Positions 59 through 63,367 are shown, numbered from the whole stretch's first letter. The stretch: DNA of 63,367 nt, filler included, from Kipferlia bialata (GCA_003568945.1; 6 parts of 6 records of this genome joined end to end with filler, not necessarily neighbours in it), one strand, 5' to 3'. Notes: generated by a model from the letters alone, not told the origin. Made by a program: numbers and translations.

Positions 59-1694
59 CCCTGATCTCACTGTCCTTCTTGATGATCTCAGCCCTCAGTG
101 CCTCGATGGTATCTGATCCACCACTGGAACTGGACAGACGGAACTCTGGATGATAAGAGAAGGAAGATATATATATAGAGAGAGAGAGAGAGCTAGTGTC
201 TGATCCACCACTAGAACTGGACAGACGGAACTCTAGGGGATTAGAGAGAGAGAGAGTGAGACAGAGAGAGAGCTTGTGTCTGATCCACCACTAGAACTGG
301 ACAGACGGAACTCTAGGGGGTTAGGGCGGAAGGGTGAGATAGGGGTGGGCTCTAGAGGGTTGGGGGAGGAGAAAGAGGCTTACTTAGAGAAAGAGAGAGA
401 GTACTGACATATGATTAGTGGAAGGGGGGAGGGATGGACTAACAGCAACAACAACACGGTAATAGTACTGTCTAGTGGATGACTAGATAGAGGGAGAGAA
501 GCAGAGAGAGGACCTCTCGATGAAGGAATAATGGGAGAGACCATACCATACTCTATCTCCACTATGTCTTCTATATATCACCTATATAGCATCCATATCA
601 CACTACGCATACTACGCACACTCCTATCCCAATATGATTCAACACATTCATATAACCACAACTCCCAGCAGGGTTGTATGTGTATGCACATGTATATATC
701 CTGCAATGTGACCCTGACATATAGAGTGCACATGAGGGGAGGGGAGGGGGGGGGGAGGGGGGGTGGGTGGGGGGGGGGGGGGGGGGGGGTCGGTACGTAC
801 CAGGTTGGAGAGTGTGCCCTGTCTAAAGAGGTCCATGAAGGATGGGGGCAGGGTCTGGAGGGAGACACAGTGTCGGTACTCTGGCTGTGTCTGCTCGGGG
901 ATGTATCCAACCCTACTCTCATGGAAGCTAGTGAGCAGGGCCATCACCCCACTCTCCTTGCAGTCCGTGGTGCTGACTGATGCACTGTATGTCTGGTCAC
1001 GCAGGGAGCAGAGTGCTGACCCGAGGGAGTCTGTCCACAGTAGAGTGGCAGGCACCTTGCACATGTCAGAGTCACCCGTCAGTATCACGGCAGAGGGGTC
1101 GTCAAGGGCCATCTGCATAATGACGTCTGGGGGGAGAGAGAGAGAGAGAATGAGAATGAGAGAAGACACATGGGAGGGAGGAGGGGGGGGGGGGGCTACC
1201 ATGACACTCACCGTCTGCCTCTGCGGGTGCCGTGATGGTCTGTCCTGCCAATGCATTGAACACTGCCCGGGAGGCATCATCCACTGCACGGCACAGAAAC
1301 CGGTTGTTGCCCAGGGTGGTCCCATAGAGCAGCCACTCTGCAGCCGCCCTCACACTCTGGCACCTAATAGTGAGAAGGGTATATACGTGATCAGTGTAAC
1401 ACAACATGTCAAGTACCTGTTTGAGAACCTGGACGCCCTCTTCCGCATCTGCTCCTCTGTCGCCCCCATGGCCCCGTCTGCCACCACAGTCACTGTCCCA
1501 AAGTGGCTGAGGAATGCTGTCAGATATGTGGCTATATCCTTGGGCGCCATGCCCTGTTTCACCATGCACTCTGATAGGGTGAACTTGAGGTTGGCAGTGT
1601 CCACTAGGAGGTGGCTGTGCTTGAAGGAACTCAGGGGGGTGGGCTTGACCAGGCCAGCGCGCTTCAACGCACCATAGAATCCTCGGATTCCCAT
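59..1694 (-). CDS. XPG/FEN1 (PIN-like) structure-specific nuclease, multi-exon, 3'-truncated at the window edge
   Basis: The start MGIRGFYGALK, LLVD and VVADG motifs match the XPG N-domain. Spliced exons give APAEAD and ILTGDSD (XPG I-domain acidic motifs). GT-AG introns at about 1416-1364 and 1211-1127. Confidence 0.75.
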
Positions 1695-2093
1695 TTGTCA
1701 CGGTGAAGCGGGTTTTGACACAGTCAATGACGTTCAGTGGAGTGAACCCTCACGGCAGCAAAAATGAACTCGATGTCTGGAGTCGCTGTCAGCGACTCGC
1801 TGTTGTGAGCCAATACAGTCACCAAGCAATACCACTTAACTGGTAAATATCGAAACCACAACCATATGTTACCTTCCTAAGCCTTACATTTACTACAAGA
1901 CACATTTACCATGCCACGTACCGTCCCTATACTAATAGTAATACTAATACTAATAGGACTGACAGGCATGGGAGCTAGACACGGTCATAATCATAGGAAA
2001 CACTAATACGATACAAATAGAAGAGGAGACTACCTCCAATGCTAAATAGGAACATACACACTCACACACACACTACTACTCACACATGGCCCC

Positions 2094-4479
2094 TCACATG
2101 CTAGACGACTCTGTGGTGGACTCCTCGAAGCTATCCTCTCTCTCCCTCTCTCTCACGGGTCTGGCAACAGGTATGACTACTGGCTGGACTGCCTCCACTG
2201 CATCTGCCTGGCCTATCCTATACGGACACACATAGCGGGACCTGGCACCCTCTACCTCAAGGGAGAGGGAGGGGGGCTGGCTACGCTTAGCCTTAGCCTT
2301 GCCCGTCTCCTGCCCACATCTGGAGAAGGAAATGGCGTATGTGGGGCAGTGGTTGACACAGGCCATGCACCTATGGCAGTGACTGTCAAGCCAGACAAGT
2401 ACCCTGGAGCCATCTCTCCCACGCTCTCTCTCTCTCTCCCTCTCTCTCTCCCTAGCCTTGGCAGCCTTTCCCTTCGCCTTCCTTCCCTTGGGCTTGGGCT
2501 TGGGTCTCCCCCTCCCCCTCTCACTGTCTCTCCGGGGTCTGCCCTTGGCCTCTGCCACTGACTGACTCTCTCTCTCTCTCTCCCCCCCACCACCCTGCCC
2601 CCTATCCATGAACCACACGGCGTTGTACTGGCACACCCTCACACACTCCCCACACCCTATGCAAGTAGATGCATCGTGGATCAGATGGCCGAAGGTGGCT
2701 ACGGCCATGTTCCGGGGCTGGCGGAAGGACGCCATGTAGCCCCTTACGCGAGATATGGGGTTGGGGGGCCTGGGGGTGAGACGTTGTATGTATAGATACA
2801 CATCAGAGAAGGAGTGTCTAACTATGCATACCTTGGGTTGATGTGCGGCAGCAGGTGCAGGTCTCGGGGCCTCTCCATGATATTGCCTAAGGGGTAAGTC
2901 TCTCTCGAGAGCGACATATATATAGGAGTGTATGGACCGTACCTATCTTGAGGCAGTACTTCTGGACCTTGACCACTGCCTGCCAGTACAGCCTCTCCTC
3001 GTGGGTGGGGGTGTCAGGTAGGGTCAGGCCTGGGGTTAGGATTGCTCATATAGAATAACCACTATCCTATATATGAATATGCCCACCTGGTATGGACAGG
3101 GATGCCAGCATCTTGCGCGGCATGCCCTCCTCCTTGGTCTTGGAGGGGGGGCTGGGGGTGGGGGGGGTAGGGAGTATACATAACACATAAAGGGGATGTA
3201 CCTGCTCCTTCTATTAGGTATGTTTCGAAATATATATATATATATATACTACAAGATATATAGGCAGGTCACGCAGTATTGTAGCCAATATATACCATGC
3301 ATGTACCTGCCCCCCCTGCCTGGTCTGTTGTCGGGTGCTCTGAGGGCAAAGGCCATCACAACCTGAGAGGGTGAGGGAGAGAGAGAGAGAGAGAGAGAGT
3401 AGAGAGTGGAGGTTCAAACAACAGACACAACGGCCAGAGCGCGACACCCACCTTCCTCCCTCCCCTTCTGAGCCTCTCCGCTGTCTCCTGCAGTGCTGTC
3501 CCACACTCAGTGGCATAGGTACAGCCTAATACAATGGGACAGTTGGGGAAGGGCGGCATCGAGGGGGGTGACATACCCTCTGCCCCTCTCTCCCTCTCTC
3601 TCTCTGCGCCCTTCCCCCTCCCCTTGGGTGACTTCATACATGTACATAACCCATCTATGACAGAGGACACAAAGGCAGGGGGGGCTCGCATGAAGTAGAC
3701 GGGGAAGAGCAGGATGAGCAGAGAGGTGTTGGCCACAACCTCACTGGGGGTGAGAGAATAGATAGATGGGGGGATGGTATGTCACTCACAAGTGGGGTAT
3801 ATACAAGAGGTCCGGAGAGTGTTGAGCGTGTAGAAGTAGCCACAGTGATATACATATACAGAGCCAATACCTCTCAATCTTGAGTGCATTATGCCTTGGG
3901 GTGACGTCAAATAGGTGACACCCTGATGGGACTCCGCTGGGAGACTCTAGGTGTGCATATAGCTGATGAGTAAATAGGGGAAGATAGGAATACATCTCAC
4001 AATATGTGGGTAGGTGTAAGGGGGTGGGGGAAGGGGGGAGAAGAGGCATAACTATGCACACAACTTCAGGGTACACATACATGTGCAGGGTCACCTGTAT
4101 CGTGGAAAGAGCATGTGCAAAACTGAATAGAACAGAGACTTGCAAGCTACATAGTCTTCTCAGCATTGACTAGGGTTGGTACCTCTCTCATCAGGATATA
4201 GGAGAGCCATCGTGTGTTGCCTGTATGGCTGAACGCTGGTGGGTGAGTGACCTTGTGCAGAGGCAGGGAGCAATGCAGAATAAATGGACGTACCCAGCAT
4301 GGTAACATAGCCCATCTCCCTCTCCCCCGAGGCAGAGGGTGGCCCACCAGGTGCTAGGGGTGCTCGCCCACAGACGCACAACTAGGGGCCGAAACACACA
4401 CTCACACAGAGCTGATGGTCTTCCCGATACCCGACTGGCAGTGTAAGAGAAGAACGTTCAGTCTCAATCCCGGATCCAT
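2094..4479 (-). CDS. EFR1-like ferrodoxin: N-terminal flavodoxin domain plus C-terminal 2x[4Fe-4S] ferredoxin domain, multi-exon
   Basis: Exons encode GNTRWL (flavodoxin P-loop region) and LFPVYFMRAPP. The last exon has CIGCGECVRVC and CHRCMACVNHCP. Likely ATG at 4479 (MDPGLRLNVLSY); stop at 2094. Confidence 0.7.
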
Positions 4480-4665
4480 TGCAACAAGGCATCATTTCAG
4501 GTTGGAGTTCCAAATGCTACTACCCTCCATATACAGCCACTTCCTGGCCAAATAGACCACACATCCCTAGAGTATCATCATCTATTTAACACAAAACACT
4601 GGGGAGGGGTGATGGTAAGCTAATGCTTCCCCTCCTAGTCTACACATACACATCTCTGTCCCAGT

Positions 4666-62267: not shown

Positions 62268-62305
<38 letters not shown>

Positions 62306-63206
62306 CTGTCTATCGGCATTTAACAGATCCTCGTGGATGGTGAGTTCTCTCTCTCTCTATGAATACTTGAATATATATAATTCTCACCTGTACGCCAAAA
62401 CAGTTACATATAGATCTGTTGTGTGTCAGTGTCTATATGTATATCTAATACCAGCCGGCCTAGGTTGGGTTGTCCCAGTTGGCGTTGTCATCATCCTGGC
62501 AGGCATTGCGGTAGCTGGATACTATCTGGTGCGTCATGTATTTATATATATACTATATACACAAATTTAAGAATACGTTTATACACATGTGTAAATATTG
62601 GCAGTTGTGGTCATTCTGGCTGGCATAGCTGCAGCGGGGTTCTATCTGGTACGGATGCCTACATACACAAGCTGTTATATCTATTTTCTTCAGTAGTAGT
62701 ATATTCACTCTCTCACCCCAGTACAAGAACCACCAGCGCAAGAAGGCCCAGCAGCAGGCAGCAGGTATATATATACATATATACTATATCATATGAATGT
62801 TGAAGTATACTTCCTTGTACATACATATATATATATAAATATCACGGTATATACCAGTGTAAGAAGACACAGCAGCAGGCTGTCGGTAGGCTTCTATTTT
62901 TGCTGTATATACATATGTATATACCTATGCCCCCTCATTCAGGTGTGTGTACTCTCTCTCTATGCTTTTGTCTATCCTGCAGCCTCTGACCCAGGTCTGT
63001 CTACTCTTCACATATCTATACCGATATATTGTACATCGGATTTCTTTTGATTCCCAGGTCTGTCTGCCGTGTCCGCTACATCCCTCTTTCTCCCTCTCTC
63101 TCTCTATGTATATATACTGATATGTGTATATACCTCTCACCCAGGCCTCTCTGCCGTGTCCACAGCTGGTGTGGCACCCATGACTGCACCGGTCCATCCC
63201 ACTCAG
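61960..63206 (+). CDS. Internal exons of a hypothetical membrane protein
   Basis: RRRGGRGDPLSNLIAGIAM|VIVMLYYMFGSIIAGIYQSLVD|GLGWVVPVGVVIILAGIAVAGYYL|YKNHQRKKAQQQAA contains two TM helices with a positive-inside tail. Confidence 0.6.
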
Positions 63207-63367
63207 GTATATATGGGTATATATATATGTATACAATATATATATATAGAGAGAGAGAGAGATAGAGGGAGTAGAAGGTGTGGCACCCATGACTGCACCA
63301 GTCCATCCCACACAGGTATATATATATATACTGATATATATATATTCATACATATATATACATGCAT

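What the first reader, a model, noticed from the sequence alone, without database searches (positions are those of the whole stretch)
100..63320. Genome-wide 'echo exons': introns filled with partial copies of the neighbouring exon edge plus splice site that keep the protein code
Seen: in most genes, introns hold 1-4 copies (about 20-65 bp) of the adjacent exon end plus GT donor, or of the AG acceptor plus exon start, embedded in (TA)n/(GA)n DNA. Examples lie at about 196/275, 6320, 6823, 7329/7461, 7690/7795, 9230/9428, 25028, 30218/30307, 32402-32655, 33807, 34067/34171, 34272, 38570, 38952/39051, 43655, 43887/44026, 44790, 46960/47093, 48300, 50760, 51046/51150, 55806-56268, 58434, 61310/61428, 62600 and 63277. 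An echo lacks the other splice site, so it cannot be an ordinary cassette exon. Even so, differences from the real exon are mostly third-position synonymous or conservative. Established: neutrally decaying duplicates should show dN about equal to dS. Inference: the echoes were copied from functional, diverged alleles or homologues (templated insertion or break repair in microsatellite introns), or rotate into the coding position by unequal exchange or gene conversion, or are used in an unknown RNA or DNA rearrangement step. I know of no described system matching this.
Basis: partly seen in the sequence, partly recalled or inferred. Interest (0 to 1): 0.95.

Follow-up and report, generated by a model that had tools for sequence, protein, structure and literature searches.

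The report
Introns packed with code-keeping exon echoes
About half the introns here hold ~30-base copies of the neighbouring exon edge that differ mostly at silent codon positions and are spliced out, likely scars of recombination between very divergent alleles, which would make one genome a record of hidden sex.

Summary
Confirmed. The window is six scaffolds of an intron-rich eukaryote. In 20 hand-built gene models, 63 of 120 introns hold 114 copies of the adjacent exon edge plus its GT or AG (chance 0.3%). Copies are ~30 nt whatever the exon length, about one intron length apart, nested (donor copies always 5' of acceptor copies) and lack the other splice site. Differences from the exon fall 83/67/240 on codon positions 1/2/3. 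The 0-fold/4-fold distance ratio is 0.22 (0.14-0.33). The right neutral null is 0.5, not 1. Echo versus echo gives 0.11. In the 7.4 kb tested, read contigs span exon and echoes at single-copy depth, and RNA uses the outermost sites and the exon's letter at 23 of 23 sites. Clonal duplication and conversion never gave under 0.5 in simulation; a pool of alleles 0.3-0.5 apart fits. Best reading (0.6): recombination junctions between highly diverged alleles, refreshed by unequal exchange. No second strain was found, so this step is inferred. Single echoes alone (0.34; 0.21-0.56) do not exclude neutral decay. I found no description of this architecture.

The parts
196..320 (-). Two acceptor echoes (AG + exon start; ends near 232 and 312) of the exon 145-59
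   Evidence: sequence printed; self-alignment
6322..7838 (+). TMEM120-family gene (5615-8238): donor echoes 6322-6339, 6814-6851, 7328-7359, 7460-7491; acceptor echoes 7693-7731, 7794-7838
   Evidence: frame and adjacency of two exons from Pfam PF07851 positions 120-171 and 172-194 (below the curated cut-off)
9225..10444 (+). Gene B (9519-11588): acceptor echoes near 9230, 9428, 10412-10444; donor echoes 9673-9704, 9933-9958
25031..25072 (+). Donor echo of exon 24852-24941; 3 of 3 differences synonymous
27305..27766 (-). Gene E: donor echoes 27305-27323, 27463-27484; acceptor echo 27738-27766
30218..36633 (-). Gene F (36766-29911), 26 echoes in 12 of 15 introns, e.g. acceptor echo 32928-32981 (5 of 5 differences synonymous), donor array 32403-32437 / 32525-32600 / 32652-32709, acceptor array 33484-33760, and donor echo 33805-33840 (identical exon part, unrelated intron after it)
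38567..39783 (+). Gene H (exons 38431-38517, 38794-38869, 39290-39357, 39878-39928): donor echoes 38567-38605, 38947-38988, 39044-39085, 39401-39445, 39495-39530; acceptor echoes 38679-38722, 39748-39783
   Evidence: DNA contig 38843-39082 at 422.9x spans exon end and two echoes; RNA contig joins the four exons with 0 other letters
42621..44816 (+). Gene I (42034-44992; cysteine pattern recalled as saposin-like): echoes 42621-42648, 42906-42930, 42962-42978, 43171-43193, 43648-43685, 43887-43905, 43913-43943, 44027-44071, 44097-44122, 44375-44406, 44498-44522, 44787-44816
   Evidence: RNA joints 42305>42768 and 43827>44195 use the outermost GT and AG; DNA contigs at 465-483x
45603..48998 (-). 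Gene J (methyltransferase-like, 49340-45425): 17 echoes in 9 of 11 introns, e.g. donor echo 48412-48454 (ENAARVGIADNTE vs ENGARVGVADNTE, 6 synonymous and 2 replacement differences)
   Evidence: weak Pfam PF08241 match of one exon, E 0.048
45085..45357 (-). Three echoes of the end of gene J downstream of its apparent stop; ambiguous because the stop overlaps a GT kept in the two longer copies
49884..51637 (+). Gene K (49693-51777): echoes 49884-49922, 50015-50058, 50299-50336, 50758-50785, 51047-51089, 51140-51199, 51455-51490, 51594-51637
55808..56333 (-). Four-copy donor array of exon 56532-56434 (55808-55872, 55948-56010, 56137-56191, 56265-56333): same open end, 18-20 codons each, 4-6 synonymous and 0 replacement differences each; an N gap lies inside the array
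52793..61545 (-). Gene L (61674-52283): 26 echoes in 12 of 23 introns, including 33-36 nt donor echoes of 801-nt and 1074-nt exons (58433-58468, 57004-57044)
62315..63323 (+). Gene M: donor echoes 62315-62345, 62598-62653, 62853-62888, 63277-63323
12379..24650 (.). Echo-free scaffold (0 of 19 introns); internal negative control with the lowest microsatellite share and highest GC

Best explanation
About half of the introns here are nested stacks of ~110-base units, each a ~30-base copy of the adjacent exon edge with its splice site plus ~75 bases of intron, spliced out in the mRNA seen; the copies are likely left by recombination between highly diverged alleles. SHOWN: anatomy, synonymous bias (also echo versus echo), unrelated intron sequence beyond the splice site, presence in reads, outermost splice sites used. 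INFERRED step 1: alleles are ~0.3-0.5 apart at 4-fold sites and their microsatellite introns no longer align, so only exons offer homology. INFERRED step 2: repair of a break in an intron joins allele A's intron by microhomology to a point ~30 nt inside allele B's exon, so both alleles keep the overlap; B's exon end and GT become a donor echo (mirror image for acceptors). Only overlaps that are spliced away survive. INFERRED step 3: in later crosses an exon edge pairs out of register with an echo; this lengthens or shortens arrays, overwrites echoes with fresh coding alleles behind an old junction, and can move echo letters into the coding copy, where selection filters them. INFERRED step 4: splicing tolerates the decoys because sites are recognised as exon pairs (exon definition), and an echo has only one site.
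For: 4-fold 138/505 vs 0-fold 147/2098, ratio 0.22 (0.14-0.33), neutral null 0.5. Echo-echo 76/179 vs 45/688, ratio 0.11; echo-private changes 64 at 4-fold vs 44 at 0-fold sites. 16 of 35 within-intron pairs share the open end within 3 nt (17.5% expected); these differ by 51 synonymous vs 14 replacement codons and share junction flank in 6 of 12 tests vs 2 of 19. Intron sequence beyond the splice consensus resembles the real intron in only 22 of 104 echoes at p<0.05, and is mostly unrelated even for near-identical echoes, so units are not fresh cis tandem copies. No drift to AT in echoes (39 GC>AT vs 54 AT>GC); replacements are conservative (72 changes, p=4e-4). 12 three-state 4-fold sites in array comparisons point to more than two sources; all four two-site combinations occur in the 55.8-56.5 kb array. 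Echo length does not scale with exon length; donor echoes are 5' of acceptor echoes in 18 of 18 introns. Clonal model >=0.50 in 27 of 27 settings; allele pool at 0.3-0.5 with short neutral residence gives ratios 0.09-0.22. Precedent: crossovers confined to conserved exons in a hypervariable fungus (PMC4209137).
Against: No second allele was seen: DNA contigs show no other letters, no conspecific locus in metagenomes (best 46% over the query, 56-58% on fragments), one-member cluster for the one protein looked up. The required diversity exceeds the record in the paper read (0.20, PMC4576712 abstract). Single echoes give 0.34 (0.21-0.56), compatible with neutral decay. Echoes are scarce at coding termini (1 ambiguous of 13 stops, 0 clear of 9 starts), which a pure homology-edge model explains only by extra selection. 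The junction step has no direct evidence and does not by itself explain why 108 of 110 spacers are 30 nt or longer. 6 of the 16 same-junction pairs come from one array with an N gap. Gene models are hand-built; RNA supports parts of three genes only.
Confidence: 0.6

Rival explanations
1. Echoes came from diverged homeologs or paralogs (hybrid or polyploid past) by conversion tracts ending at exon edges, not from a present-day allele pool.
For: Gives the same low dN/dS and unrelated introns; divergence is fairly even among echoes (chi2/df 1.45 over 73 echoes).
Against: Arrays hold up to five distinct versions and three-state sites, needing more than two parents; 15 of 114 echoes are identical to the exon; no diverged second copy was listed among DNA contigs laid at 85% likeness (listing truncated).
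Confidence: 0.13
2. Echoes are under direct protein-level selection because they are used: swapped into the reading frame by programmed DNA deletion between the repeats or by a non-canonical RNA join in a stage not sampled.
For: Array copies keep the code best (0.15, CI 0.10-0.22); four copies of 18-20 codons carry no replacement; splice dinucleotides kept in 45 of 59 and 44 of 55.
Against: RNA contigs carry the exon letter at 23 of 23 distinguishing comparisons and use outer sites (contigs drop rare variants). No opposite splice site; unit lengths not enriched for multiples of 3 (37 of 102, p=0.16), 9 of 102 in frame and stop-free; no AG/GT ratchet enrichment (p=0.25, 0.60); 3 stops and several frameshifting indels in echoes; DNA depth flat across echoes.
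Confidence: 0.12
3. Ordinary cis tandem duplications or polymerase-theta-type templated insertions of the gene's own edge, decaying neutrally; the synonymous excess comes from the exon side only.
For: Explains edge anchoring by survivor bias; 15 identical echoes; single echoes 0.34 (0.21-0.56) overlap 0.5.
Against: Predicts >=0.5; observed 0.22 overall, 0.26 without the two largest arrays' introns, 0.11 echo-echo; flanking intron is not copied even when the exon part is identical. May hold for a share of single echoes.
Confidence: 0.07
4. Assembly artefact: several haplotypes stitched through microsatellites.
For: Short-read assembly with N gaps inside two arrays; the DNA run may be the source of the window; contigs break at repeats.
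Against: Separately assembled contigs match with 0 differences across exon plus echoes at 423-483x, the same as echo-free DNA (444-477x); offsets are 50-150 nt with unique sequence between.
Confidence: 0.03

Closest known systems
Exon-confined crossing-over in hypervariable Schizophyllum commune (PMC4209137, abstract and section 11; PMC4576712, abstract)
   Same: Recombination between genotypes ~14% apart uses conserved exons; synonymous diversity up to 0.20.
   Different: No retained exon-edge duplicates are mentioned in what I read; here the implied divergence is higher (0.27-0.43 at 4-fold sites) and junctions keep a ~110-nt overlap.
Intron gain by tandem genomic duplication (PMC3443670, passages)
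   Same: Duplicated exon sequence with splice sites ends up inside an intron.
   Different: There a segment with AGGT creates a new intron whose ends copy the exon on the far side, with no spacer and neutral decay. Here copies sit ~75 nt inside existing introns, copy the near edge, stack up and keep the code.
Mutually exclusive or tandem cassette exons, pseudoexons and decoy exons (recalled; search listing)
   Same: Exon-like intronic copies with strong splice signals; cassettes keep the code.
   Different: Echoes have one splice site, never span a whole exon (0 of 98) and are absent from the mRNA contigs.
Paralogous MDSs and long pointers at scrambled ciliate loci (PMC9797194, passages)
   Same: Many small local duplications leave partial coding copies in sequence that is later removed; copies may be used alternatively.
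   Different: That is programmed germline-to-soma DNA rearrangement; here removal is by GT-AG splicing, order is never scrambled and DNA depth is flat.
Recursive or nested splicing (recalled)
   Same: Nested order of donors and acceptors (18 of 18).
   Different: No AG|GT ratchet enrichment; donor and acceptor echoes occur independently (18 introns with both, 17.5 expected).

Membership tests
Mutually exclusive/cassette exon | Both splice sites flank the copy | tested here: not met
   1 of 57 and 8 of 53, no more than random positions
Mutually exclusive/cassette exon | Copy covers the whole exon | tested here: not met
   0 of 98 reach the far edge
Mutually exclusive/cassette exon | Copy appears in mRNA | tested here: inconclusive
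   Exon letter at 23 of 23 comparisons in two genes, but contigs drop rare variants
Alternative 5'/3' splice site extension | Added stretch in frame and open | tested here: not met
   37 of 102 in frame, 9 of 102 also stop-free
Tandem genomic duplication intron gain | Duplicate abuts the splice sites and copies the far-side exon | tested here: not met
   Near edge copied, spacer median 74 nt
Neutral cis tandem duplicate | 0-fold/4-fold ratio about 0.5 or more | tested here: not met
   0.22 overall, 0.15 arrays, 0.11 echo-echo; single echoes 0.34 (0.21-0.56) inconclusive
Neutral cis tandem duplicate | Intron part of the unit copied as well as the exon part | tested here: not met
   22 of 104 flanks similar at p<0.05
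Recursive splicing | AG|GT ratchet points regenerated | tested here: not met
   34/40 vs 60/80 exons ending AG; 5/39 vs 15/81 starting GT
Ciliate-type programmed DNA rearrangement | Rearranged somatic DNA lacking the removed segments | tested here: inconclusive
   Flat depth and no exon-echo deletion joints among the 15 of 25 joints listed; one culture state only
Unequal exchange among hyperdiverse alleles | Copies sharing one junction differ like coding alleles | tested here: met
   51 synonymous vs 14 replacement codons in 16 pairs
Unequal exchange among hyperdiverse alleles | Population 4-fold diversity about 0.3 and echo letters segregating in exons of other isolates | not testable with these tools
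   No second strain found

The most novel reading that the evidence does not exclude
Echo arrays are a maintained library of interchangeable exon-edge cassettes: the cell swaps them into the coding position by directed DNA exchange (or a rare non-canonical RNA join), so each is under its own protein-level selection and the genome edits thousands of exon edges.
Probability: 0.12. Interest if true: 0.97.

Novelty: categorically new. Interest (0 to 1): 0.85.

Why it matters
If the best reading holds, one apparently homozygous genome carries a fossil population sample: about one echo per intron here, each a piece of another functional allele. That would give evidence of outcrossing and of synonymous diversity above the recorded maximum without a second isolate, and would mark recombination junctions at base resolution. 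It would also be a new route of intron growth: echo units are 44% of 26,363 intron bases, +110 nt per echo. Whatever the origin, the spliceosome skips near-perfect inner sites (echo site scores equal or beat the real one in about a third of 52 donors and 52 acceptors) in an organism with ~80-nt introns, a direct test of exon versus intron definition. Practically, echoes mislead gene prediction: my own predictor called many as exons.

Tried and rejected
No whole genome was held, so nothing beyond six scaffolds was counted. The large protein search could not be made. Atlas search of the intronless ORF 40297-41529 gave only scores under 0.9; the representative search gave only the protein itself, cluster size 1. 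The metagenome scan with a kinase exon found no close relative; those 80 loci hold 5.0 short direct repeats per 10 kb against 25 here, but many look like transcripts, so this is not a like-for-like control. Reads could be laid on one 7.4-kb stretch only; uncovered bins there prove nothing. A strand-symmetric (TA)n(GA)n junction signature was not supported: donor echoes follow TA-rich, acceptor echoes precede CT-rich DNA, much like normal intron halves. A fixed ruler on unit length was not supported (echo vs spacer rho -0.12, p=0.28). Nearest echoes are barely closer to the exon than far ones (0-fold 89/1444 vs 45/605). Loss of flap-removal genes as cause was dropped: the candidate relative Kipferlia bialata is listed with XPF, ERCC1, Msh3 and PolQ. 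Echoes at coding termini as proof of a splicing-independent origin: only one ambiguous case. Earlier scan findings: none. Four doubtful echoes of 114 were dropped for the anatomy counts (110 left; 102-104 where exact anchoring was needed); pooled divergence figures use all 114.
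Full report
WINDOW. The 63 kb are six scaffolds of ~12.3 kb (the last cut) joined by N-flanked spacers. The organism is an intron-rich eukaryote with GT-AG introns, acceptors like CTCACCCCCAG and microsatellite-rich introns. One protein of the window is held by NCBI, UniRef and eukprot, unnamed. From memory the intron style resembles the free-living fornicate Kipferlia bialata (51 Mb, 124,912 introns, N50 10.5 kb; PMC5874029 and PMC8516963, passages). This is a recalled lead, not tested; nothing below depends on it except the repair-gene context.

GENE MODELS. A small self-trained predictor was curated by hand into 20 models with 120 introns, all GT-AG but one GC-AG, open in frame (two end coordinates fixed). 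Outside checks are partial: two TMEM120 exons hit contiguous profile positions, a prefoldin exon and, weakly, a methyltransferase exon match (4 of 8 exons tried gave a fitting family); RNA contigs confirm exons of three genes. Wrong frames would push the ratios below towards 1, not away.

IS IT THERE? Yes. Masked exon edges align to their own adjacent intron at score >=13 in about half of the introns, against 0.3% of 26,080 cross-gene pairs. The scan lists 114 echoes (59 donor, 55 acceptor) in 63 of 120 introns; GT is kept in 45 of 59, AG in 44 of 55. Scaffold 2 has none (0 of 19), scaffold 1 has 7 of 27, the others 54 of 74.

ANATOMY (110 echoes after dropping 4 doubtful). Exon part median 30 nt (10-71), also beside 800-1,000-nt exons; spacer median 74 nt, like an echo-free intron (median 79 of 59); 2 of 110 spacers under 30 nt; donor echoes 5' of acceptor echoes in 18 of 18 introns; no opposite splice site; none reaches the far exon edge. 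Intron length grows ~110 nt per echo and echo units are 44% of intron bases. Donor and acceptor echoes occur independently.

IS IT IN THE DNA AND RNA? Two runs of one sample hold the stretch. On 37160-44600, DNA contigs match with 0 other letters across exon plus echoes (38843-39082 at 422.9x; 42255-42828 at 471.9x; 43748-43974 at 479.5x; 44184-44600 at 482.6x), like echo-free DNA (443.7-477.1x). The run may be the window's source, so this is a separate assembly, not a separate sample. The second run is spliced: joints 42305>42768 and 43827>44195 and a four-exon contig use the outermost GT and AG and carry the exon letter at 23 of 23 exon-echo differences. Contigs drop rare variants, and 10 of 25 joints were not shown.

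DO ECHOES KEEP THE CODE? Differences by codon position are 83/67/240 in 1,080 codons; dN/dS 0.19 (0.13-0.28, bootstrap by intron). Free of transition bias, 4-fold sites differ at 138/505 and 0-fold at 147/2,098, ratio 0.22 (0.14-0.33). Echo against echo gives 76/179 and 45/688, ratio 0.11, so the echoes themselves passed through selection. Without the introns holding the two largest arrays the ratio is 0.26 (0.19-0.36). Against: the 56 single echoes give 0.34 (0.21-0.56), the 58 array copies 0.15 (0.10-0.22). Echoes also show some decay: 3 stops and several 1-4 nt indels.

WHAT KIND OF COPY? Not a fresh cis duplicate: 30 nt beyond the splice consensus resemble the real intron in 22 of 104 cases. 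Many array copies descend from one junction: 16 of 35 pairs share the open end and half of those tested share its flank (6 of 12 vs 2 of 19). Yet they differ by 51 synonymous and 14 replacement codons. An old junction with code-keeping content means the content was replaced after the junction formed. In simulation, exchange within one clonal lineage never gave a ratio under 0.50 (27 settings, 60 replicates each); drawing from alleles 0.3-0.5 apart with 0.01-0.05 neutral residence reproduces the data. These are simple models of my own.

MECHANISM. I commit to recombination scars among highly diverged alleles, refreshed by unequal exchange (0.6). Shown: anatomy, code bias, unrelated flanks, shared junctions, outer splicing. 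Inferred: the allele pool, sex or hybridisation, the junction chemistry and exon definition. Context, if the lineage guess is right: fornicates lack NHEJ and Rad51A and have two Dmc1 paralogs (PMC8516963, section 8); K. bialata is listed with PolQ and five Rad52 entries (its supplement, rows seen; one supplement file unreadable); Dmc1 recombines mismatched DNA (PMC11514202, PMC6719624, search listing only). In Schizophyllum crossovers fall in conserved exons (PMC4209137, abstract and section 11). The main weakness: no second allele was found, and the implied diversity exceeds 0.20 (PMC4576712, abstract). Rivals: lost homeologs 0.13, direct use 0.12, neutral cis copies 0.07, artefact 0.03.

NOVELTY. 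Searches for Kipferlia introns, partial exon or splice-site duplication, intron gain and scrambled loci listed nothing describing this; only open-access full text was searched, by exact phrases, and most hits were seen as listings. The ingredients (unequal exchange, hyperdiversity) are known; an intron architecture made of stacked, code-keeping, one-sided exon edges is not known to me. Verdict: real, categorically new as an architecture, mechanism open; interest 0.85.

Noticed in passing
window 55445-55182 (minus): One intron needs a GC donor to keep the frame of gene L; it holds two acceptor echoes.
   Followed up: partly
echoes longer than 45 nt: Third-position differences drop to 1 of 34 at 45 nt or more from the splice edge, against 0.25-0.29 nearer. 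Few, non-independent echoes; may mean divergence is concentrated at exon edges.
   Followed up: partly
window 45085-45357 (minus): Three echoes downstream of gene J's apparent stop, in the gap between two convergent genes; could be stop-codon echoes or donor echoes of an unseen intron.
   Followed up: partly
window 54480-54560 (minus): Duplicate of an intron 3' end with no exon part, as expected for a junction falling wholly inside an intron.
   Followed up: no
window 43887-43943 and 44429-44544: Broken or compound echoes: one exon end split into two adjacent pieces, and an intron-only 19-nt repeat inside an acceptor unit.
   Followed up: no
window 12379-24650: Echo-free scaffold with long exons, 54% GC and half the microsatellite share or less; echo density follows microsatellite share across scaffolds, possibly a recombination landscape.
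   Followed up: partly
window 40294-41529 (minus): Intronless 412-aa ORF with no Pfam family and no relative among 1.8 billion representatives except itself.
   Followed up: partly
window 917-1694 (minus): ORF starting MGIRGF, recalled as a Rad2/XPG/FEN1-type nuclease start; no Pfam hit on the first exon.
   Followed up: no
whole window: Coding exons are rich in (GA)n runs read as ERERER; introns holding no detected echo but 150-500 nt long may hide decayed echoes.
   Followed up: no
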